From: a phage
Sequence record: PX915676.1
Length of the DNA stretch: 64,000 nt
Reading direction: 5' to 3' (one strand)
Positions 13,169 through 39,827 of the stretch are shown here, piece by piece. A program made the position numbers and the translations under genes. The number at the start of each line of letters is the position of its first letter. Position 1 is the first letter of the stretch. Under the pieces are notes generated by a model that saw only the letters and a program-made list of their open reading frames with translations, had not been told where the DNA came from and did no database searches.

Positions 13169-13244
13169 GCGCTCTTAGCTCAATGGATAGAGCAGTAGCC
13201 TTCTAAGCTATTGGTTACAGGTTCGAGTCCTGTAGGGCGCACCA
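13169..13244 (+). tRNA. tRNA-Arg (anticodon TCT)
   Basis: Hand-folded cloverleaf: acceptor GCGCTCT/AGGGCGC, D-stem GCTC/GAGC, anticodon stem GTAGC/GCTAT with loop CTTCTAA, T-arm ACAGG-TTCGAGT-CCTGT, discriminator A and encoded CCA. Confidence 0.85.
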
Positions 13245-27141: not shown

Positions 27142-28932
27142 ATGTCAAAGATCATTTTGGGAGACACAGGTTGTAAGGAATGTATCTCTCATGGTCGTGA
27201 TAAAACCCACAACCACATGATTCTCTTCCGTAACGAAGAGACTGGTGAGGAGTGGGGGAGTTGTAACCGTTGTGGGAATTACGAAGTGTTCGAAAAGGGC
27301 ACTACACCTACTCCAAACGAGAAGAAAGAGTTATCCCCTGAAGAGTTGAGAGAAGTCTTAGATGATTGCTTAGAGCTTCCTCAGGGTGAACTTACTCGCC
27401 GTTTAATCCCTAAAGCTGTATCAGAGCGGTTTGAGTGTCGTATTGGCCTCAGTCAAACTGATGGTCAGACACCAGACAGTTACTTCTTTCCTCGTGAACG
27501 TGATGGAAACATTGTCGGATACGAGGTTAAGCTGCTAGATAGTAAGAAGTTCTATTACGTCGGCAGTGTGAAAGAAGCAGATTTGTTCGGTATGGCACAA
27601 GCTCAACGTGGAGATGTGTACAACAAGAAGCTGTTCATTTTTGAAGACCCGCTATCCTGTATGTCAGGTTTCCATGTCCTTACAGCTTTTACAAATGCAA
27701 CAAATATTAAACCAGCATGTGTTTCTTTACCGTTCGGTGCAGGTTCAATCTCTTCTGTGTTGTCTCGTAACCGAGACTTCGTAAATGGTTTTGAGGAGGT
27801 TGTGCTCTGCATGGACAACGATGATGCAGGTGAGATAGCTTTAACAAAAGGTCGTTCTTTATTCCCTCATGTTAAATTTGCTCGTATTCCTAAAGGAACT
27901 TTCCCATACAACGGTGTGGAGAAAGAGATTAAGGATGCGAATGACATGCTTCTGTCTGGTCGTGGTCAAGAGTTATTCAACATTCTCAAGTATTCAGCAA
28001 AGCGGGAATCTCCTGCTGGTGCTGTAACAATCTTTGATTGTCTTGATGATGCTCTGAAGAAAGCGGAGTGGGGTATCCCGTATCCGTGGAAGACTCTGAA
28101 TGAGATGACCTTCGGTATTCGATGGGGAGAGGTGGTAGCAATTGGTGGTGGAGTAGGGAGTGGTAAAACGCTCATTGCTCACGAGCTGGTTGCTCATCTG
28201 TGCTTAGAGCATGGTTTTAATGGAGGTGGCTTCTTCTTGGAAGAGAAGGTAGGCATGTCTGTTAAGAACATTGCTGGTAAGTCAGCATCAATTCCTTTCC
28301 ACCGACCTGATGTTGAATATGACGAGGAAGATTTGCGTAATGAAGCACTTCGTTATGCAGACAAATTCTTCTTGTATGACAACTTCGGACAGAATGAATG
28401 GGAAGACATTAAACAGTGTATCCGTTTCTGGGTAGTTGAAAACCAGTGTAAGTTCATCATCCTTGATAATATTACCGCTCTGGTATCTCATTTAACACCT
28501 TCAGAGATTAACACTGAAATCAGTAAGATTGCTTCCGAGCTTGCTGGTATGTGTAAAGAATTAGACTTTACCGCTTTCGTGCTATCTCACCTTAATGCTC
28601 CGGCAGGTGGTGCTCCTCATGAAGAAGGTGGGCAGGTACGTGAAGTACAGTTCACTGGCTCTCGTTCTCTTATGCGTTGGTGTCAGTGTATCATTGGCTT
28701 TGAGCGTGATAAGCAAGCTGACGGCTTAGCTAAGAACCTCTCAGTCATTCGATTACTGAAAGAACGTAACTACGGTCAGACAGGTGTCTGTTATACTAAG
28801 TATATCAGCGAAACCGGTAGACTTGTAGAAAGGGAAGACTTTGAAGTTGATGAAGATAATCCATTCGTTTTAACTAACGGAGAGGATGCAGCTTCTCTCG
28901 TCAACCAAGCAGATGGAGCTTCACCGTGGTAA
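27142..28932 (+). CDS. DNA primase/helicase (T7 gp4-like)
   Basis: N-terminal zinc-binding CKEC...CNRCG, TOPRIM-like middle, Walker [10 protein letters not shown] and DnaB-like helicase C-terminus. Confidence 0.9.
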
Positions 28933-29483
28933 AGAAAAAGAAGAAAGTGTTTGCATTCGATATCGAGAGTAATGCACTGTACGATGACATAACTAAAGTA
29001 TGGTGTATTTATATCTTTGATGTTGAAACTGGTGAAAGGTGGGGCTATCGGCCTCACCAAATTGAAGATGGGATTCGTAAACTTACAGAAGCAGATGTAC
29101 TAGTGGGTCATAATATTATTGACTTCGACTTACCTGCTCTGAAAAAGATGTATCCCTCTTTGATTAAATATAATTTTAACGTCTTTGACACTTTATGTCT
29201 TAGTCGATATCTTAAACCTGACCGTATTGGTGACAGTCCTGAGTATCCGAAAGGCGACCCTAGACGTGGCCCAAGAGGTCATGGTTTGAAGCAATGGGGT
29301 GAGTTCTTAGAGGAACTTAAAGGTGACTACGGTGAGCAAGAGGAAGCATGGGATGCTTTCACTGAAGATATGTTTACTTATTGTGAACAGGACGTTAACT
29401 TAACTGTTAAGGTTTATCTTTTCTTGTGTGAACTCACGGGATTTGACCCTTACGACCCACCTTCATTATATTGGAAAATGTAA
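28926..29483 (+). CDS. DNA polymerase I family 3'-5' exonuclease subunit (T7 DNAP N-terminal homolog)
   Basis: Exo I FDIESNAL, Exo [15 protein letters not shown], Exo [11 protein letters not shown] collinear with T7 gene 5 residues 1-185; GTG start with GGAG SD overlapping primase stop. Confidence 0.85.
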
Positions 29484-29484
29484 A

Positions 29485-30798
29485 ATGATTGTTATCCCGA
29501 TTAACCAAATTGAAGATAAGGTTGCTCAACAACCTGATATCACTGTTGGTCGTCACTTCATTGAACAGTTGATTAACAACAACTTGATTCCAGATGGTAT
29601 CTGTCCCATCATTACTGGTGGGGCTGTTCGTGATGCTGTCCTTAATAACATAGCTCCACATGACATTGATATCTTTATTGTCAGAGGACAAACACCAAGA
29701 ACTCAAAACACTTTCATCCCAACTGATCGTTGGCAAGAGCTTGGACGGGAGATTGAAAGTAATGTGAAGGAATGGCTAGAGTCACAAGATATTGAATATG
29801 CATCACTTCTTGCTGAAGCTACAAACGAATCCTATGCTGGGGGTTCTCAATTAACATTCACTGATATTATTGAGTTTCAGTGGAATGGGGTTCGTATCCA
29901 ATTCATGTTTAATTATCCTACTTCTATTGAAGAGGTATTGGATAATTTTCCTATGATGTGCCGTGGTGCGATGACTCTTGACAACTTATTCATGACTTCT
30001 CACGGATATTTGGCTATGACTTCCCCTTGTCCAGTGGTTGTCTCTAGTCGTGAAATCAGGTATGTTCACAAGAAGTGGCCTAACTCACAAGTGTTGAGAT
30101 TTTCCTCTCCAGCAGTTGCGCATCAATACATGGCCCAAACTCGATATCTTCCCACACCTCAGCCAGTTAGTCATCTAGTCAATGGATTAGGTCAGGTTTC
30201 TCTTATTGAAGATACAACAAGTGCTCTATATTGTGTTAACCGAGACATGAGTCGATTCTTTGGAATCCCTTATGAAGAGATTCAGATTATGTCTAGTCTT
30301 CACGGTTCTGGTCAGATTCATGCGTATTGGTCTGAGGGGTTGACAAATTTAACGACTAACACGGGTGGTGATCTGCTTGGTCGAGAAGAGGAACCTAACC
30401 GACACAATGCAATTGAAGGGGTGTTTGTAGCCCCTGCAATGCGTCGAGCACAAGAGTCACGAAGAGAAAGCCCTACTCGTAGAACATCTTTTGAAGAAGC
30501 TCTTGGTATTACAAGTGATTCTATGGAGCGATGGATGGCTAGACCCTCTCGTGGTCGACCAAACGGCTTAACTGTTAGCGCACGTCAGTTCTCTGGTCAG
30601 GGTTTCGCTGTTGGTGATATCAACGCCCCTTCTCGTGTTATCTGGACTGATGAAGGTATGGAACAAGATTTGGGAGATAGTCTCGCTGATCGCTTTATTG
30701 CTAACAACCCTGAAGTATTAGAACCTCAAACCCGTACAGTTCGGTTTGCCGATGAAGCGGGTCGTGGAATCTCTTTTGACATGGAAACAAATAACTAA
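29485..30798 (+). CDS. polymerase beta-superfamily nucleotidyltransferase (CCA-adding/poly(A) polymerase-like head domain)
   Basis: ITGGAVRDAVL...HDIDIF matches GGxVRD and DxD motifs of class II tRNA nucleotidyltransferases; remaining 350 aa unrecognised. Confidence 0.55.
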   Translation: MIVIPINQIEDKVAQQPDITVGRHFIEQLINNNLIPDGICPIITGGAVRDAVLNNIAPHDIDIFIVRGQTPRTQNTFIPTDRWQELGREIESNVKEWLESQDIEYASLLAEATNESYAGGSQLTFTDIIEFQWNGVRIQFMFNYPTSIEEVLDNFPMMCRGAMTLDNLFMTSHGYLAMTSPCPVVVSSREIRYVHKKWPNSQVLRFSSPAVAHQYMAQTRYLPTPQPVSHLVNGLGQVSLIEDTTSALYCVNRDMSRFFGIPYEEIQIMSSLHGSGQIHAYWSEGLTNLTTNTGGDLLGREEEPNRHNAIEGVFVAPAMRRAQESRRESPTRRTSFEEALGITSDSMERWMARPSRGRPNGLTVSARQFSGQGFAVGDINAPSRVIWTDEGMEQDLGDSLADRFIANNPEVLEPQTRTVRFADEAGRGISFDMETNN

Positions 30799-30807
30799 GG
30801 AATAAGA

Positions 30808-31341
30808 ATGAGTTTACTAGGAAGTATTGAACTGCATGATGTAATTGACAATGGCTATCTGGATGCGGAGCATAAGTATGTTAACGCTGCTAGTGTGGAT
30901 ATCCGTATTGGTGATACTATCCTTGTTGAAGAACAGGCTGATGGCATCGTTGATATTGATGCGAAAGAGAATCTTCAGTGGAAGGAAGTAAAGATTCCTG
31001 AAGAGGGTTTGGTTATCACTCCGGGTCAGTTCTTCTTGGCTCACTCTATGGAGGAGTTTAACCTTCCAGATAACATCTCAAGTCTGTTTGTTCTGCGTTC
31101 GTCTATGGCTCGTTGTGGTTTGAACCACCTTCACGCCGGTTGGGCAGATGCAGGATTTAATAGCAGTAAGCTGACATTTGAATTCCATAACGTAACCAAG
31201 CACCACAGCTTACGAGTTCGTGCTGGTATGCGTGTTGGTCAGATGGTTATGTTTGAGCACTCTCATGCAGGGGAACACTCCTATGCAGTGAAGGGTCGTT
31301 ATAATAACTCTGAAGGTGTGGTTGCATCTAAAGGTGTGTAA
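30808..31341 (+). CDS. dCTP deaminase family protein
   Basis: ASVDIRIGD and AGWADAGFNSSKLTFEFHN resemble dCTP deaminase/dUTPase motifs. Confidence 0.75.
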   Translation: MSLLGSIELHDVIDNGYLDAEHKYVNAASVDIRIGDTILVEEQADGIVDIDAKENLQWKEVKIPEEGLVITPGQFFLAHSMEEFNLPDNISSLFVLRSSMARCGLNHLHAGWADAGFNSSKLTFEFHNVTKHHSLRVRAGMRVGQMVMFEHSHAGEHSYAVKGRYNNSEGVVASKGV

Positions 31342-31539
31342 ATGAAAAAGTGGATTGTTCGTGTACATGATAACACGACTGGAGAGTTAGTAGCTGTAGA
31401 TTTTGTTAAGACTCGAGAACACGCACGTAGGGTCAAAAATCAATACAAGTCTACTTTTAGACTTAACAAGGTTACAATTGGAAAAGCTATTGTGAATAGC
31501 GAAGGTGCTTTTATTGCCAACAGTAAGGTTTATTATTAA
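31342..31539 (+). CDS. small protein, tandem paralog 1 of 3 (C-terminal KVYY)
   Basis: Track ORF; shares W-rich N-terminus, TRE(H/E)AR motif and SKV.YY end with next two ORFs. Confidence 0.55.
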   Translation: MKKWIVRVHDNTTGELVAVDFVKTREHARRVKNQYKSTFRLNKVTIGKAIVNSEGAFIANSKVYY

Positions 31540-31748
31540 TGAGACCGATCACTATGAGACAATTTTGGTTAGCAAAGATTAAGTGGGTATCAGGTGGCAT
31601 GACTATGACTGCACTACCCACTCGCCAACAAGCTCGAGATTTTAAAAAGACTATGCTTACTGGTGACGTGGTCAATAGTATCAGTATCCATAAGGCCAAG
31701 GAATATTCCTCTGGTCGTGTTTATATCAGCGGAAAGGTACACTACTAA
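31539..31748 (+). CDS. small protein, tandem paralog 2 of 3
   Basis: Track ORF; same pattern (ends KVHY). Confidence 0.55.
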   Translation: MRPITMRQFWLAKIKWVSGGMTMTALPTRQQARDFKKTMLTGDVVNSISIHKAKEYSSGRVYISGKVHY

Positions 31749-31957
31749 TGAAAAAGATGTGGGCTATTAGAATTGTTTGGGAACGTGAGCAACACCTAGG
31801 CAAAGATAATATCAAACTGTTTGAAACTCGTGAAGAGGCTCGTATTGCTAAGAAGGAGTTGAAGACTCTGATCGGAACTATTAAAAGTGTTGACATTCAT
31901 CGCTGGTACGAAGACCCTAGCTCGGGTTCTTTTATGTCTAAAGTAATTTATTACTGA
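31748..31957 (+). CDS. small protein, tandem paralog 3 of 3
   Basis: Track ORF; same pattern (ends KVIYY). Confidence 0.55.
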   Translation: MKKMWAIRIVWEREQHLGKDNIKLFETREEARIAKKELKTLIGTIKSVDIHRWYEDPSSGSFMSKVIYY

Positions 31958-32029
31958 TTGGTAGTAGATATGGTAACTCTCAAATGTATATAGAGTACAA
32001 TAAGAATTTGTATTTTACAGGAGAGAGTT

Positions 32030-32359
32030 ATGTTAGATTTGAGTAAAGTGGCCCCGCCCACTGAAGAGATTACAAAATCCAAGGTGATGCAACAGTTTTA
32101 TCATCGTGATATGCTTGGTCGCTTTATCAAGAATCGTGATGTTGTTGCTTGGTCTATTGGTAATCAGGGATATCTGTTGAAGGTTCTTCAGGTTACAGGT
32201 TCAACTGCTAAGCGAGTTAAGGTGTATGACCCTGAAATGGGGCGTTCTAAGTCAGTAGACCCACAGAACTGCATCGTAATTACCCAGCAGGTAATGGATA
32301 ATATTGCACGTAATGTTGCTAACTCAGTTGAACTTGATGGAGAAAACCCAAATGCATAA
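32030..32359 (+). CDS. hypothetical protein
   Basis: Track ORF 109 aa. Confidence 0.55.
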   Translation: MLDLSKVAPPTEEITKSKVMQQFYHRDMLGRFIKNRDVVAWSIGNQGYLLKVLQVTGSTAKRVKVYDPEMGRSKSVDPQNCIVITQQVMDNIARNVANSVELDGENPNA

Positions 32360-32915
32360 GAATGTCTTTGATTTACCTGAGATTGGTCGTGACAGTTATA
32401 GTATGTTAGACCGGTCCGACCTATCAATCTCTCGCCTTGAAACGATGCAAGGTATGATTAGTGGAAACAGCCTAGAACACATCCTGAGCTGCTTACAAGC
32501 TAACATGGAACTCTTGCATATCAAAGCTAAAAACTACCACTGGAACGTCTCTGGTGCAGGATTTCAGGGTGTTCATGGTATGTTTGATGAGCTGGAAGAT
32601 TACGCACGACAGGTAGGAGATCGTATTGCTGAACGTATGCGTTACCACTGTGTTAAAGTGGATGCTACAGCAGCTAACTACCTCTCTCATTCTTGGTTCT
32701 CAGAGGGTAATGCTGATCTAGACATGGACGGTATGCTCTCTGATATGTGCATGACCTTGATGTGTATTATTGAGAAGATGGATGAGTTTGATGGTGATTT
32801 AGCCACCTACCCTGTCGATCAGAGTATGCTTCAAGAAATTAATGAAGGTCTTGGCAAGTATTGCTACTTCGTCAAGAGCAACATGTCCCATTCAAGTGGT
32901 GACGTGTCTTACTAA
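32352..32915 (+). CDS. Dps-like ferritin-fold protein
   Basis: Track ORF trimmed to ATG 32352 with GGAG SD; LHIKAKNYHWNVSGAGFQGVHGMFDELEDYARQVGDRIAER matches the Dps ferroxidase-site helix pattern. Confidence 0.65.
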   Translation: MHKNVFDLPEIGRDSYSMLDRSDLSISRLETMQGMISGNSLEHILSCLQANMELLHIKAKNYHWNVSGAGFQGVHGMFDELEDYARQVGDRIAERMRYHCVKVDATAANYLSHSWFSEGNADLDMDGMLSDMCMTLMCIIEKMDEFDGDLATYPVDQSMLQEINEGLGKYCYFVKSNMSHSSGDVSY

Positions 32916-32976
32916 AAACCTCCGCCCTGTCTCCTAACCCGAGGTGGGGCGAACTTATTTATAAGGATATAGATAT

Positions 32977-33156
32977 ATGTTATCAGCAATCGTATGGGGT
33001 ATTTGGGCTATCTTTATTGGTGGTGGTATTTATTGGGCTTCTGGTAAGCTTATTGAAGAAACTCCTGATAAGAAAGGTGAGATTCAAACAGCATCAACCA
33101 TCATGGTTATCGTAGCTGTTGTTATCCCATTCCTGCTTCACCTCCTGACTGCATAA
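32977..33156 (+). CDS. small membrane protein (59 aa, two hydrophobic segments)
   Basis: ATG with AAGGA SD; below track cut-off. Confidence 0.4.
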   Translation: MLSAIVWGIWAIFIGGGIYWASGKLIEETPDKKGEIQTASTIMVIVAVVIPFLLHLLTA

Positions 33157-33164
33157 GGATTTAC

Positions 33165-33440
33165 ATGTCTAAAGTAATTAAGTTTTATAGTGATCAGTGT
33201 GCTCCATGTAAAGCAATGGCTCCTACCTTTGAGAAGGTTGTTAAGGAGTTTGATGTAGAAGTGGAAGAGATTAACATCCTTGAAGGTGATGGTCGTGAAC
33301 AAGCTGTTAAGTATGGTATACGAAGCATCCCTGCTTTTGTTGTGCCTGACCGTAACAGTGGTGCACACTACAGCCTCTCCGGTATGCAGACTGAAGCAAA
33401 CCTGAAAGCATTTTTGGACACAGCCCTGAGAAATAAGTAA
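33165..33440 (+). CDS. thioredoxin/glutaredoxin-fold protein (CxxC)
   Basis: Track ORF; active-site-like CAPC near N-terminus, about 90 aa. Confidence 0.7.
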   Translation: MSKVIKFYSDQCAPCKAMAPTFEKVVKEFDVEVEEINILEGDGREQAVKYGIRSIPAFVVPDRNSGAHYSLSGMQTEANLKAFLDTALRNK

Positions 33441-33455
33441 TAAGGATATTCACGG

Positions 33456-34112
33456 ATGAATGAACAACTACAAGCAACATTAATCGAAGCTATGGGAAGT
33501 GATCGTAGCGTAGTAAACGCAGCTCGAGTTTCCTTTGGCGTAACCCGTGAAGGTGATTTAAATGAACGTGATGAACGTCTCATCAACTTCCTCGCACGGG
33601 AAAAACACTGTACCCCATTCCGACACCCGCAAGTCAGCTTCCGATGCAAAGCACCTATTGCAATTGCGAGACAGCTGGGCAAGCATCAGGTTGGATTCTC
33701 GTGGAACGAAATGTCCCGGCGGTATAAAGATGGAGCAGTTGAAGTCTTCATCCCTAAAGAGATTTTTGCGAGACCTTCGGACCTCCATGCAGGTTCAGGG
33801 ATTCAACTCATCGACGGAGAGCGAGCTGAAGCATTAATGCTGATTAACGATGCATATGAAGCTTCTCTAGCAGCATATGACAAGTTGATTGAATTTATTG
33901 CACCAGAGCAAGCTCGATTTGTTCTTCCTCAGGGGATGATCACTGAGTGGGTGTGGACCGGTTCTTTGTATGGCTGGTTTGAGTTGTGTCGTCAGCGACT
34001 CTCCTCTCACGCTCAATATGAAGTTCGAGTGTTTGCTAAATCTGTAGACGAAGAGATGGCTAAGATCTACCCAATCTCGTGGGCAGCCCTGAAGAAAACT
34101 TTGGAGAGTTAA
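33456..34112 (+). CDS. thyX: flavin-dependent thymidylate synthase ThyX (variant motif)
   Basis: AARVSF, TPFRHPQVSFRCKAPIAIARQ, SWNEMSRRY and SHAQYEV match ThyX blocks; canonical RHR triad reads KHQ here. Confidence 0.8.
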   Translation: MNEQLQATLIEAMGSDRSVVNAARVSFGVTREGDLNERDERLINFLAREKHCTPFRHPQVSFRCKAPIAIARQLGKHQVGFSWNEMSRRYKDGAVEVFIPKEIFARPSDLHAGSGIQLIDGERAEALMLINDAYEASLAAYDKLIEFIAPEQARFVLPQGMITEWVWTGSLYGWFELCRQRLSSHAQYEVRVFAKSVDEEMAKIYPISWAALKKTLES

Positions 34113-37982: not shown

Positions 37983-39827
37983 GTGAGCAACCCGGACGCT
38001 CTTCCATTTTTGACAGAGATGACTGTCGCTGATATAATCTCTAAGCAAGCAAAGCACGGAGTGAGTTTCAACCGAAGAAATGCTCGGTGGTATGTTCACC
38101 TCCTTAAAGAGATTATTGTTAATATTGACAGAGAGTTGATTCCTCTCTTACCTAAGATGAGATTAGACGGCTCTACTTATATGAAGCCGTTTAAGAAGTC
38201 TGGAGCTTTGCAGAAATGGCCTCAAGCTTATTGTGATAGGGTTGGGCTGAAGAGAGAAGACATTGGCGGAGCTTTCACCTGTGTCGAATACGTAGACTTT
38301 GACCCATCGAAAGATGCACGAGTTAAAGAAGCTCTTATGGATGAGGGCTTTCTTCCTCCAGAGTTTAACGTATCTAAGAAGCCTTGGAATACTTTCGAAA
38401 TTAAGAAAGATATGAGAAAGTATGGAACATACCAAGCATGGTATACTGCTTGGATGCGAGGCAATGCTAAGCAAAAGCAGACAGCCGAGATGGTTGACGC
38501 TGATATTAAGAAGTTCTTAGAAAAGCATTTCAGGTTTAAGACTAAGAATTACATGAAGGCTTACGTATTTGGTTTGGGGTTGAACCCTAATCGCCGTAAT
38601 CCTGTAACGTTTGATGAGATTAAGAAAGCGCTAGCCACATCAAACAAGTGGCCTACAGCTCCTACAAATCTCGAGGAGACTCTCGAAGAAGGGTTAGGAG
38701 GTGAGCTAGGGAGTGTCGGAAGTTTGCTTAAGAGACGCGTTGTAGCAGCTCACAGGCTAGGTCTTATCAATGGACTCATAGCAAAGGAACGCGAAGATGG
38801 TAAACTTTCGGCAGAAGCTAACAGCTGCGCTACGCCGACTTTTCGATTCAAACATCGTATCGTGGTTAATATTCCCTCCCGTGGTTTGTTTGGTCACGAG
38901 TGTCGCAGTTTGTTTGAGTCTGACTATAACTCAGACAGTGATCATTCTCGTCCTTTCATTATTACTAACGTTGTTCCTGATGGTTGTTATATACGAAAAG
39001 GTACTAACGTAATTTACGAGAAGGGTAAGCCGGGGAAGAAAGACAAACCTGTAGGTGCTTACAAATATTACATACCCGCTGGTAAAGAAGTATTCTTAGG
39101 GTATGATGGTTCTGGGCTTGAACTTCGCATGCTCGCTCACTACCTCATTAAAGAGTGTAGGGACATGCTTGCTGAAGCAATAGAAGAGAATAATCCAGCT
39201 AAGAAAGCTCTGGCAGAACGTGGTTTAGCTTCTGCTATTATGTATCGTGACATCCTCCTTGAAGGGGATATCCACTCCCACAACCAGAAACTTGCTGGTC
39301 TTCCTACTCGTGACAACGCTAAGACCTTTATCTACGCATTCAACTATGGTGCTGGTGATGCTAAGCTCGGTTCAATTGTAGGTGGTGGGGCTGACGAAGG
39401 TTCAGTGATGCGAGCACGTTTCTTAGCAGAGAACCCATGTATTGCAATCCTCATTGATCGTATGACAGAGAAAGCTGCTCAAGGATACTTGATTGGTGTC
39501 GATGGTCGTAAGATTACAATGAGACGGGATGCCACTGGTAAGGTTATGGTTCATAAAGCCCTTAACACACTCCTGCAATGTGCTGGTGCTGTTGTTATGA
39601 AATATGCTATGATGTTCCTTAACAAGTGGATTGAGAAAGATAAGGTTCGTTGTGCTAAGGTAATTGATATGCACGATGAAGGTCAATTCTCAGTAAACCG
39701 TAATGATGTACAGAAACTCAAAGAGCACACTGAGCTTTGTGTTAAGAAAGCTGGCGAGTATCTGAACATGGAATGTCCTCTGGCATCTGATTGTCAGATT
39801 GGACTTAACTGGATGCATACACACTAA
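37983..39827 (+). CDS. DNA polymerase I family polymerase subunit (T7 DNAP C-terminal homolog)
   Basis: GYDGSGLELRMLAHY, PTRDNAKTFIYAFNYGAGDAKLG (motif B), MHDEGQF (motif C), collinear with T7 gene 5 from about residue 190; GTG start with AAAGGAG SD. Confidence 0.9.
   Translation: MSNPDALPFLTEMTVADIISKQAKHGVSFNRRNARWYVHLLKEIIVNIDRELIPLLPKMRLDGSTYMKPFKKSGALQKWPQAYCDRVGLKREDIGGAFTCVEYVDFDPSKDARVKEALMDEGFLPPEFNVSKKPWNTFEIKKDMRKYGTYQAWYTAWMRGNAKQKQTAEMVDADIKKFLEKHFRFKTKNYMKAYVFGLGLNPNRRNPVTFDEIKKALATSNKWPTAPTNLEETLEEGLGGELGSVGSLLKRRVVAAHRLGLINGLIAKEREDGKLSAEANSCATPTFRFKHRIVVNIPSRGLFGHECRSLFESDYNSDSDHSRPFIITNVVPDGCYIRKGTNVIYEKGKPGKKDKPVGAYKYYIPAGKEVFLGYDGSGLELRMLAHYLIKECRDMLAEAIEENNPAKKALAERGLASAIMYRDILLEGDIHSHNQKLAGLPTRDNAKTFIYAFNYGAGDAKLGSIVGGGADEGSVMRARFLAENPCIAILIDRMTEKAAQGYLIGVDGRKITMRRDATGKVMVHKALNTLLQCAGAVVMKYAMMFLNKWIEKDKVRCAKVIDMHDEGQFSVNRNDVQKLKEHTELCVKKAGEYLNMECPLASDCQIGLNWMHTH

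What the first reader, a model, noticed from the sequence alone, without database searches (positions are those of the whole stretch)
29485..30798. GGxVRD nucleotidyltransferase inserted right after the polymerase exonuclease gene
The head domain (ITGGAVRDAVL...DIDIF) is the signature of class II CCA-adding enzymes/poly(A) polymerases, but the remaining ~350 aa do not resemble the usual tRNA-binding body. Possible roles: maturation or repair of phage tRNA 3' ends, RNA tailing, or another nucleotidyl transfer.
Basis: partly seen in the sequence, partly recalled or inferred. Interest (0 to 1): 0.5.

Follow-up and report, generated by a model that had tools for sequence, protein, structure and literature searches.

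The report
Gad2-like phage nucleotidyltransferase, not CCA-adding
This conserved gene of phiEco32-like coliphages encodes a nucleotide-transferring enzyme whose core looks like the head of tRNA CCA-adding enzymes, but whose closest family is Gad2, a phage protein that disarms the bacterial Gabija defence, so it is more likely a counter-defence enzyme than a tRNA repair enzyme.

Summary
Window 29485-30798 (+) is a real 437-aa gene, phiEco32 gene 73, already annotated "nucleotidyltransferase" in this Kuravirus. It has GGAVRD (45-50) and DID (60-62).

- no RRD motif
- no EDxxR motif
- no body or tail domain
- Pfam head score below cutoff

Residues 283-437 are predicted disordered but are under purifying selection.

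By sequence profile the domain is nearer to Gad2, the anti-Gabija protein of Bacillus phage SPbetaL7. hhalign gives 91-98% probability over 135-156 columns, against 28-61% over 25-58 columns for E. coli Cca. A 93%-identical homolog carries a weak precomputed Pfam PF26128 (Gad2) hit.

Small relatives sit in family-A-polymerase replication modules of unrelated phages.

The best reading is an active Gad2-family transferase with a counter-defence role. Its substrate is unknown, and Gad2's own mechanism is unsolved. tRNA repair, RNA tailing and DNA-directed roles remain possible.

It is a new member of a known kind, of moderate interest.

The parts
29485..30798 (+). Complete CDS (437 aa plus TAA), orthologous to phiEco32 phi32_73 and Bas90_0070 'nucleotidyltransferase'
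   Evidence: phrog_12715 E 2e-245
29485..30219 (+). Folded nucleotidyltransferase domain (residues 1-245): class II Pol-beta-type head plus a short helical extension. It is homologous to the Gad2 N-terminal domain.
29617..29670 (+). Motif A: GGAVRD (residues 45-50) and catalytic DID (residues 60-62)
   Evidence: G45, G46, R49, D50, D60 and D62 are invariant in 51 diverse family members; regex check
29872..29901 (+). Beta-hairpin carrying E130 (acidic in 35 of 51 members) and Q139 (Q in 47 of 51; also Q in 7 of 8 Gad2-family sequences). These are the two candidates for the third metal ligand.
   Evidence: which of the two is the ligand is unresolved
29947..29964 (+). FPMMCR (residues 155-160). 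It sits where Gad2 has FDFTVC; by eye it also corresponds to RRDLTIN of Cca. This is a degenerate motif B in which both arginines and the aspartate are lost.
   Evidence: hhalign alignments; column counts; Gad2-family invariants
30049..30081 (+). REIRYVHKKWP helix (residues 189-199). K197 and P199 are near-invariant. It aligns with the R..KY..K(G)Y helix of Gad2.
30220..30339 (+). Residues 246-285: short helices of low-to-moderate model confidence. F259 is invariant, and D254, S256, I266 and W282 are near-invariant, across genera.
30340..30795 (+). Residues 286-437: tail predicted to be intrinsically disordered. It has an Arg-rich stretch (300-375, pI 11.3) and an acidic end (376-437, pI 4.05). 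It diverges fast between genera but is under purifying selection within Kuravirus.
   Evidence: pLDDT below 50 for residues 283-401 and 408-437; composition; identity profile; dN/dS 0.18-0.51
28926..29483 (+). Upstream neighbour: separate 3'-5' exonuclease subunit of the family A DNA polymerase. Its stop lies 2 nt before the NTase start.
30808..31341 (+). Downstream neighbour: dCTP deaminase
   Evidence: Pfam DCD E 3.6e-34

Best explanation
The gene encodes a phage-specific nucleotidyltransferase of the Gad2 family (Pfam PF26128).

What is shown:
- Its 245-residue N-terminal domain has the class II Pol-beta-type head fold.
- The nucleotide- and metal-binding signature is intact: G45, G46, R49, D50, D60 and D62 are invariant across the family.
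- It lacks the protein-template residues that make CCA-adding enzymes specific.

What is inferred:
- It is made with the middle (replication) genes.
- It most likely acts as a counter-defence or host-takeover enzyme. It would catalyse untemplated NMP or dNMP transfer to a nucleic-acid 3' end, or synthesis of a small nucleotide product. This would blunt a host nuclease-type defence, as its relative Gad2 does for Gabija.
- The 150-residue disordered Arg-rich/acidic tail would recruit the substrate or a partner.

Unknown: the acceptor substrate and the defence system targeted.
For: Family and fold:
- hhalign against a Gad2-family alignment gives 96.6% (E 6e-10, 135 columns), 97.9% (E 6e-13, 156 columns) and, for a Gordonclarkvirinae-only profile, 91.0% (140 columns).
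- The same profiles match E. coli Cca at only 28-61% over 25-58 columns.
- Homolog P0001, 93% identical, carries 'PF26128:Gad2 (weak)'. Most Kuravirus homologs list PF26128.2. So do authentic Gad2 and all 120 listed Gad2 homologs.
- Gad2 also hits phrog_1614 and phrog_4400, which members of this family hit too.

Gad2 precedent:
- Gad2 is experimentally required for SPbetaL7 to resist Gabija, is predicted to be an NTase, and is toxic when expressed (preprint 10.1101/2023.05.01.538930).

Signs of an active enzyme:
- The catalytic residues are invariant in 51 diverse members.
- The domain is under strong purifying selection.

Biological context:
- Gordonclarkvirinae are unusually resistant to the tested defence systems, with no known mechanism (PMC11990801).
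- The SU10 ortholog was detected by mass spectrometry, from a single peptide (PMC4281155).
Against: - The homology to Gad2 is remote (about 15-18% identity), and the Pfam hit is only 'weak'.
- A narrow profile against the single Gad2 sequence aligns motif A only (60.6%).
- The aspartate of FDFT, invariant in the 8-sequence Gad2 alignment, is proline in all Gordonclarkvirinae-type sequences.
- Gad2's folded C-terminal half has no counterpart here.
- Gad2's biochemical mechanism is itself unknown (PMC12904381), so the analogy supplies a role but not a reaction.
- No experiment links any Kuravirus to Gabija; no held paper mentions both.
- The gene sits among replication and nucleotide-metabolism genes rather than in an obvious anti-defence island.
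Confidence: 0.4

Rival explanations
1. tRNA 3'-end repair or CCA-adding enzyme. It would restore CCA ends of host or phage tRNAs damaged by host nucleases or toxins.
For: The closest solved folds are class II CCA-adding, A-adding and poly(A) enzymes. The GGAVRD...DID motif A is present. [quoted passage not shown]
Against: There is no RRD or EDxxR motif in the protein (RRD in 0 of 51 relatives, an EDxxR-type pattern in 2), while the Cca control has both. There is no body or tail domain. The Pfam head score is below cutoff, and there is no NCBIfam hit. The only phage tRNA encodes its own CCA. Many relatives occur in phage groups that, as far as I know, usually carry no tRNA genes (tRNA content not checked here).
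Confidence: 0.12
2. Template-independent RNA tailing (poly(A)-polymerase-like). It would mark host or phage transcripts for decay or stabilisation, with the Arg-rich disordered tail binding RNA.
Against: Sequence similarity to PAP/CCA enzymes is limited to about 45 residues. The ribose-sensing RRD motif is absent. The tail as a whole is acidic (pI 4.9). There is no experimental hint.
Confidence: 0.15
3. DNA-directed role within the replication module. This could be untemplated 3' tailing or capping of DNA ends or primers, or a step in a covalent DNA modification, as the BASEL authors speculated.
For: Homologs lie inside family-A-polymerase replication modules in unrelated phages: phi92 (directly after PolA), PaP3-like Bruynoghevirus and a Zobellviridae vibriophage. 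Synteny with primase/helicase, exo and dCTP deaminase is conserved. Loss of the RRD ribose sensor would permit dNTP use (inference from established class II enzymology). Gordonclarkvirinae are strongly resistant to restriction-modification systems, and PMC11990801 proposes a modification involving this gene.
Against: Co-location may only reflect shared middle-gene timing. ThyX, dCTP deaminase and thioredoxin together look like an ordinary dTTP supply route, which argues against a dU genome. No modification has been reported. No DNA-binding domain is detected.
Confidence: 0.15
4. Catalytically dead scaffold that uses the tail to bind replisome or host proteins.
For: The third carboxylate is not clearly conserved: E130 is acidic in only 35 of 51 members, and position 139 is Gln. 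The protein has a long disordered tail with conserved anchor residues.
Against: G45, G46, R49, D50, D60 and D62 are invariant across 51 members that are 16-38% identical. This is hard to explain without catalysis.
Confidence: 0.03

Closest known systems
Gad2 (Pfam PF26128), the anti-Gabija protein of Bacillus phage SPbetaL7 (Yirmiya et al., preprint 10.1101/2023.05.01.538930)
   Same: The N-terminal NTase domains are homologous over about 140-156 columns. Shared features are IIAGG, D-x-D-(I/V)-(F/Y)-F, the conserved Gln strand, the F(D/P)xxC motif and the R..(K/R)Y..K helix. Both have Pfam family hits to PF26128. Both are phage-borne, about 400-440 aa, with a non-NTase C-terminal half.
   Different: Identity is only about 15-18%. 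Gad2 has GGAITS where this protein keeps GGAVRD. The invariant Asp of Gad2's FDFT is Pro here. Gad2's C-terminal half is a different sequence, while here the tail is predicted disordered. The genomic settings differ: an SPbeta anti-defence locus versus a replication module. Anti-Gabija activity is untested here.
Class II CCA-adding, A-adding and poly(A) polymerases (E. coli Cca and PcnB, Bst CCA 1MIV, Aquifex 1VFG/4WBY)
   Different: It lacks motifs B (RRD) and D (EDxxR). It lacks the neck, body and tail that bind tRNA. The Pfam head score is below cutoff. Sequence similarity is confined to about 45 residues.
Small (about 170-230 aa) phage 'poly A polymerase head domain' proteins (phrog_1614, phrog_10174), e.g. 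phi92 gp158, LKD16 and LIMEzero nucleotidyltransferases; also the head-only bacterial protein 2LA3
   Different: These are the domain alone, whereas the Gordonclarkvirinae proteins add a 100-260 aa variable tail. None is functionally characterised in the literature I could search.
MNT-like phage NTases that make competitor cyclic dinucleotides (Ho et al., 10.1101/2022.06.09.495361)
   Same: They are phage-encoded Pol-beta-superfamily NTases with an anti-defence role.
   Different: They form a different clade with a different signature (GS-x-AYGT-x4-SDxD). This signature is not present here.

Membership tests
Class II CCA-adding enzyme / poly(A) polymerase | Motif A: GGxVRD followed by the catalytic DxD | tested here: met
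   GGAVRD at residues 45-50 and DID at 60-62; invariant in the family
Class II CCA-adding enzyme / poly(A) polymerase | Pfam PF01743 (PolyA_pol head) at or above the gathering score | tested here: not met
   18.8 bits against a cutoff of 23; 20.3 bits for the domain alone
Class II CCA-adding enzyme / poly(A) polymerase | Head-domain fold | tested here: met
Class II CCA-adding enzyme / poly(A) polymerase | Motif B, RRD (ribose recognition) | tested here: not met
   No RRD in the protein or in any of 51 relatives. E. coli Cca, the positive control, has RRD at residue 90.
Class II CCA-adding enzyme / poly(A) polymerase | Motif D, EDxxR (amino-acid template for C and A) | tested here: not met
   No [ED]D..R in the protein. 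Cca has EDPLR at residue 130.
Class II CCA-adding enzyme / poly(A) polymerase | Helical body and tail domains that bind tRNA/RNA | tested here: not met
   No Pfam domain beyond the head. In the full-length AF2 model, residues 283-401 and 408-437 have pLDDT below 50.
Class II CCA-adding enzyme / poly(A) polymerase | CCA or poly(A) addition activity | not testable with these tools
   Needs in vitro assays
Gad2 (PF26128) | Hit by the Pfam Gad2 model | tested here: inconclusive
   The 93%-identical homolog P0001 carries 'PF26128:Gad2 (weak)'. PF26128.2 is listed for most Kuravirus homologs but not for P0059 or P0060. The model is absent from the local Pfam copy.
Gad2 (PF26128) | Profile-profile homology across the NTase domain | tested here: met
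   96.6% over 135 columns, 97.9% over 156 columns and 91.0% over 140 columns
Gad2 (PF26128) | Invariant residues of the Gad2 N-domain (GG, DxD, F, FD-T, R, Y) | tested here: inconclusive
   GG, DxD-IF, the Gln strand, F155, C159, R189 and Y193 correspond. The invariant Asp of FDFT is Pro156 here.
Gad2 (PF26128) | Gad2 C-terminal half | tested here: not met
   The full-length Gad2 comparison aligned only its N-terminal domain; the profile-profile tests used N-domains only. The window tail is predicted disordered.
Gad2 (PF26128) | Inhibition of Gabija defence | not testable with these tools
   Needs phage genetics. No literature links Kuravirus and Gabija.
MNT-like phage CDN-synthesising NTases | GS-x-AYGT-x4-SDxD catalytic signature | tested here: not met
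   Signature as described. The sequence has GGAVRD...DID instead.
Known defence-system proteins (PADLOC) | Match to any PADLOC model | tested here: not met
   0 families at E up to 10

The most novel reading that the evidence does not exclude
The whole clade (Gad2, the small phrog_1614 'head-only' proteins and the Gordonclarkvirinae enzymes) may be DNA-end- or nucleotide-directed transferases that travel with T7-type replication modules. Having lost the ribose-sensing RRD motif and the base template, they would add untemplated (d)NMPs to exposed phage DNA 3' ends or replication intermediates. This would hide those ends from end-sensing nuclease-helicase defences such as Gabija, and perhaps RecBCD or OLD-type systems. 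It would explain both Gad2's activity and the unexplained broad defence resistance of Gordonclarkvirinae.
Probability: 0.12. Interest if true: 0.8.

Novelty: new member of a known kind. Interest (0 to 1): 0.45.

Why it matters
Gad2 is a validated anti-Gabija protein whose mechanism is still unknown. Gordonclarkvirinae are abundant, therapeutically used coliphages that resist most tested defence systems for no known reason.

Placing phiEco32 gene 73 in the Gad2 family gives both problems a tractable E. coli model in the BASEL phages Bas86-94. It also replaces a misleading 'CCA-adding enzyme' annotation, and it offers an alternative to the published guess that the gene modifies DNA.

If the link is only evolutionary, the gene remains an ordinary conserved phage nucleotidyltransferase of unknown substrate.

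Tried and rejected
- Sequence search of the PDB with the single protein gave only a spurious hit to the tail.
- NCBIfam and PADLOC gave nothing.
- The first word-indexed homolog search returned only close Kuravirus relatives. Distant relatives needed an alignment query and the exhaustive profile search.
- The MNT-type phage NTases that make cyclic dinucleotides were considered and rejected on motif grounds.
- I tested whether an acidic residue at position 130 and Asp156 compensate for each other as the third carboxylate. They do not: 10 of 51 members have neither.
- A narrow 7-sequence profile against the single Gad2 sequence, or against Cca, could not discriminate (about 60% each, mainly motif A). 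Discrimination needed a Gad2-family alignment built from the preprint's supplement.
- The local Pfam copy lacks PF26128, so the Gad2 model could not be rerun on the window protein itself.
- A 2026 preprint mentioning NTase and Gad2 (phage Emajogi) could not be opened.
- Literature searches for any biochemical work on these phage 'tRNA nucleotidyltransferases' found only genome annotations.
- Residue-level structural superposition was not possible, because model coordinates are not exposed.

Full report
**What the window is**

The 64-kb window is a phiEco32-like podophage (genus Kuravirus, subfamily Gordonclarkvirinae). The 2.5 kb around the finding is 99.8% identical to Escherichia phage SkaterBoy_Bas90, and 99 phage records match it.

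The ORF at 29485-30798 (+) corresponds to Bas90_0070 and phiEco32 phi32_73. [quoted passage not shown] The SU10 genome paper already used the last name and detected one peptide by mass spectrometry (PMC4281155).

**Checking the observation**

- The ATG at 29485 lies 2 nt after the TAA of the 3'-5' exonuclease subunit gene (28926-29483). The stop codon is at 30796-30798.
- The N-terminus MIVIPIN is conserved in all relatives. The longer GTG-initiated ORF in the mechanical list is therefore not the gene.
- GGAVRD (residues 45-50) and DID (residues 60-62) are present.
- The protein matches phrog_12715 at E 2e-245.
- 'Inserted' is not apt. The block gamma-glutamyl cyclotransferase, primase/helicase, exo, NTase, dCTP deaminase, ferritin-like, thioredoxin, ThyX is conserved in Nieuwekanaalvirus and Suseptimavirus. 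It is also conserved in metagenomic relatives whose NTase is only 30-36% identical.
- The polymerase proper (DNA_pol_A) is a separate gene at 37983-39827.

**Anatomy**

- Only the first 215-245 residues are conserved between genera (33-40% identity). The C-terminal half diverges almost completely and varies in length, giving total lengths of 321-486 aa.
- An AlphaFold2 model of residues 1-224 is confident (pLDDT 85.6, pTM 0.84).
- In the full-length model, residues 1-245 are folded. Residues 255-285 form a few low-confidence helices. Residues 283-401 and 408-437 have pLDDT below 50.
- The tail has an Arg-rich stretch (300-375, pI 11.3) and an acidic end (376-437, pI 4.05).
- The tail is not junk. 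Within Kuravirus it is about as conserved as the N-domain at the protein level. Its dN/dS is 0.18-0.51, against 0.10-0.18 for the N-domain. A few aromatic and Arg positions are conserved across genera.

**Fold**

- Foldseek against the PDB returns class II CCA- and A-adding enzymes first (E about 1e-5, TM about 0.5).

**Membership in the CCA/PAP family fails beyond motif A**

- Pfam PolyA_pol scores 18.8 bits, below the 23-bit cutoff.
- A 51-sequence family profile aligns to PDB CCA enzymes over only about 45 residues.
- RRD (motif B) is absent from the protein and from all 51 relatives. An EDxxR-type pattern (motif D) is absent from the protein and found in only 2 of the 51, which I take as chance. 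E. coli Cca, run as a positive control, has both motifs.
- No body or tail domain exists.
- The phage's one tRNA (Arg-TCT, 13169-13244) ends in a genome-encoded CCA.

**The wider family**

- An exhaustive profile search found 508 cluster representatives at E of 1e-3 or better. Eighteen score below 1e-30 and are 283-482 aa long. Many weaker matches are about 170-230 aa.
- Of 51 sampled members, 47 hit phrog_1614 ('nucleotidyltransferase'). Only 25 reach even E 0.01 on PolyA_pol.
- G45, G46, R49, D50, D60 and D62 are invariant. Q139, K197, P199, Y117, F155, I63 and F64 are at least 80% conserved, and C159 is conserved in 39 of 51.
- The usual third carboxylate is ambiguous. E130 is acidic in 35 of 51 members. 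The more conserved residue on the neighbouring strand is Gln139.
- BFVD structural matches are small 'poly A polymerase head' proteins of many Autographiviridae and other phages.
- Relatives lie inside family-A-polymerase replication modules in three unrelated groups: directly after PolA in phi92, between exonuclease and endonuclease in a PaP3-like Bruynoghevirus, and in the replication block of a Zobellviridae vibriophage.

**The Gad2 link**

The sequence of Gad2, the anti-Gabija protein of Bacillus phage SPbetaL7, came from Supplementary Table 7 of preprint 10.1101/2023.05.01.538930. It shows the same motif series:
- IIAGGA...DVDIYF
- a Leu-Gln-Met strand
- FDFTVC
- LLRVQKY..K.Y

Evidence for the relationship:
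- hhalign of the 51-member profile against Gad2 gives 95.2% (E 2.5e-8, 105 columns). Against E. coli Cca it gives 56.6% over 29 columns.
- I built an 8-sequence Gad2-family alignment from the preprint's Table 10.
- Against that alignment, a 7-sequence profile (six Gordonclarkvirinae-type sequences plus one more distant homolog, P0062) gives 96.6% (E 6.4e-10, 135 columns).
- The broad profile gives 97.9% (E 6.4e-13, 156 columns).
- A 41-sequence Gordonclarkvirinae-only profile gives 91.0% (140 columns), against 28% over 25 columns for Cca.
- Independently, the precomputed Pfam annotation PF26128.2 appears on most Kuravirus homologs and on every one of the 120 best Gad2 homologs, including exact Gad2.
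- The contig look-ups name this family 'Gad2'. They mark the hit as unqualified on Gad2 itself and '(weak)' on the 93%-identical Kuravirus protein P0001.
- Gad2 also matches phrog_4400 and phrog_1614, which family members match too.

Caveats:
- A narrow profile against the single Gad2 sequence aligns motif A only.
- The invariant Asp of Gad2's FDFT is Pro156 in all Gordonclarkvirinae-type proteins.
- The C-terminal halves are unrelated.
- The local Pfam copy lacks PF26128, so I could not rerun the model on the window protein.

**What is known about function**

- Gad2 is necessary for SPbetaL7 to resist Gabija. A homolog is sufficient to block Gabija. Gad2 is predicted to be an NTase and is toxic on expression.
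- A February 2026 review still lists its mechanism as unknown (PMC12904381).
- The Gad2 homolog tables, in the part held, list no Kuravirus. No held paper mentions both Gabija and Kuravirus, Gordonclarkvirinae or phiEco32.
- The BASEL paper reports that Gordonclarkvirinae are remarkably resistant to restriction-modification and other tested systems. It speculates that the dCTP deaminase and this NTase produce a DNA modification such as dU (PMC11990801).
- The neighbouring ThyX, thioredoxin and dCTP deaminase instead look like an ordinary dTTP supply route. This weakens the dU idea.
- By position, between gene 36 (sigma factor) and gene 79, the gene lies in the experimentally defined middle-gene cluster of phiEco32. 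That placement is an inference.

**Conclusion**

Shown:
- The gene is real, conserved and under selection.
- It has a class II-type NTase head with an intact GG...DxD centre.
- It lacks CCA-enzyme motifs B and D and the body and tail domains.
- It has a predicted-disordered, constrained tail.
- Its domain is a remote but significant homolog of the Gad2 family.

Inferred:
- It is catalytically active.
- It serves counter-defence or takeover, by analogy with Gad2.

Unknown:
- The acceptor substrate.
- The nucleotide specificity.
- The target defence system.

I put the Gad2-like counter-defence reading at about 0.4. RNA tailing and a DNA-directed role are at about 0.15 each, tRNA CCA repair at about 0.12, and a dead scaffold at about 0.03. 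These categories partly overlap, because a counter-defence role could be executed through RNA or DNA tailing.

Noticed in passing
window 31342-31957 (+): Three tandem small ORFs (65, 69 and 69 aa) directly after the dCTP deaminase are paralogs of one another. They are about 26% identical, share W4, T-R-x-x-A-R and K, and end in Y. None has a Pfam hit.
   Followed up: partly
window 28926-29483 and 37983-39827 (+): The family A DNA polymerase is split. The 3'-5' exonuclease subunit (185 aa) and the polymerase (614 aa, DNA_pol_A) are separate genes 8.5 kb apart, with about 20 genes between them. PaP3-like phages show the same split.
   Followed up: partly
window 13169-13244 (+): The single phage tRNA, Arg (anticodon TCT, which reads AGA). 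Its 3' CCA is encoded in the genome.
   Followed up: yes
window about 17542-26922 (+): A cluster of COOH-NH2 ligase (PF14395, 'phiEco32-like'), amidoligase_2, a glutamine amidotransferase-like protein, a gene annotated in Bas90 as ribosomal protein S6 glutaminyl transferase (no Pfam hit here) and gamma-glutamyl cyclotransferase. This looks like a peptide or amino-acid ligation system of unknown target, just upstream of the replication genes.
   Followed up: partly
window 29485-30795, N-domain versus tail: Synonymous divergence differs sharply between the two halves of the gene in some pairs. Against phiEco32, dS is 0.55 in the N-domain and 0.14 in the tail. Against EcM-vB1 it is 0.50 and 0.05. 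This suggests recombination breakpoints inside the gene.
   Followed up: no
window 29899-29901 (Gln139): A Gln is conserved in 47 of 51 family members and in 7 of 8 Gad2-family sequences. By hairpin analogy with CCA enzymes it sits on the strand where the third catalytic carboxylate would be expected. Meanwhile 10 of 51 members have neither an acid at position 130 nor Asp at 156. The third metal ligand is unresolved.
   Followed up: partly
window 30808-34112 (+): dCTP deaminase, a ferritin/Dps-like protein (annotated 'DNA binding protein'), thioredoxin and ThyX lie together. This is consistent with a dCTP to dUMP to dTMP supply route for a 42% GC phage, and it argues against the published suggestion of a dU-containing genome.
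   Followed up: partly
L008 4932-5525 (phi92), L009 5905-6885 (PaP3-like), L010 5929-6615 (Zobellviridae vibriophage): Distant homologs of the NTase domain lie within family-A-polymerase replication modules of three unrelated phage groups. In phi92 the homolog lies immediately downstream of the T7-like DNA polymerase.
   Followed up: partly
window about 48000: GC skew changes sign near 48 kb, where the long ORFs switch from the + strand to the - strand. This fits divergent early/middle versus late transcription, as described for phiEco32.
   Followed up: no
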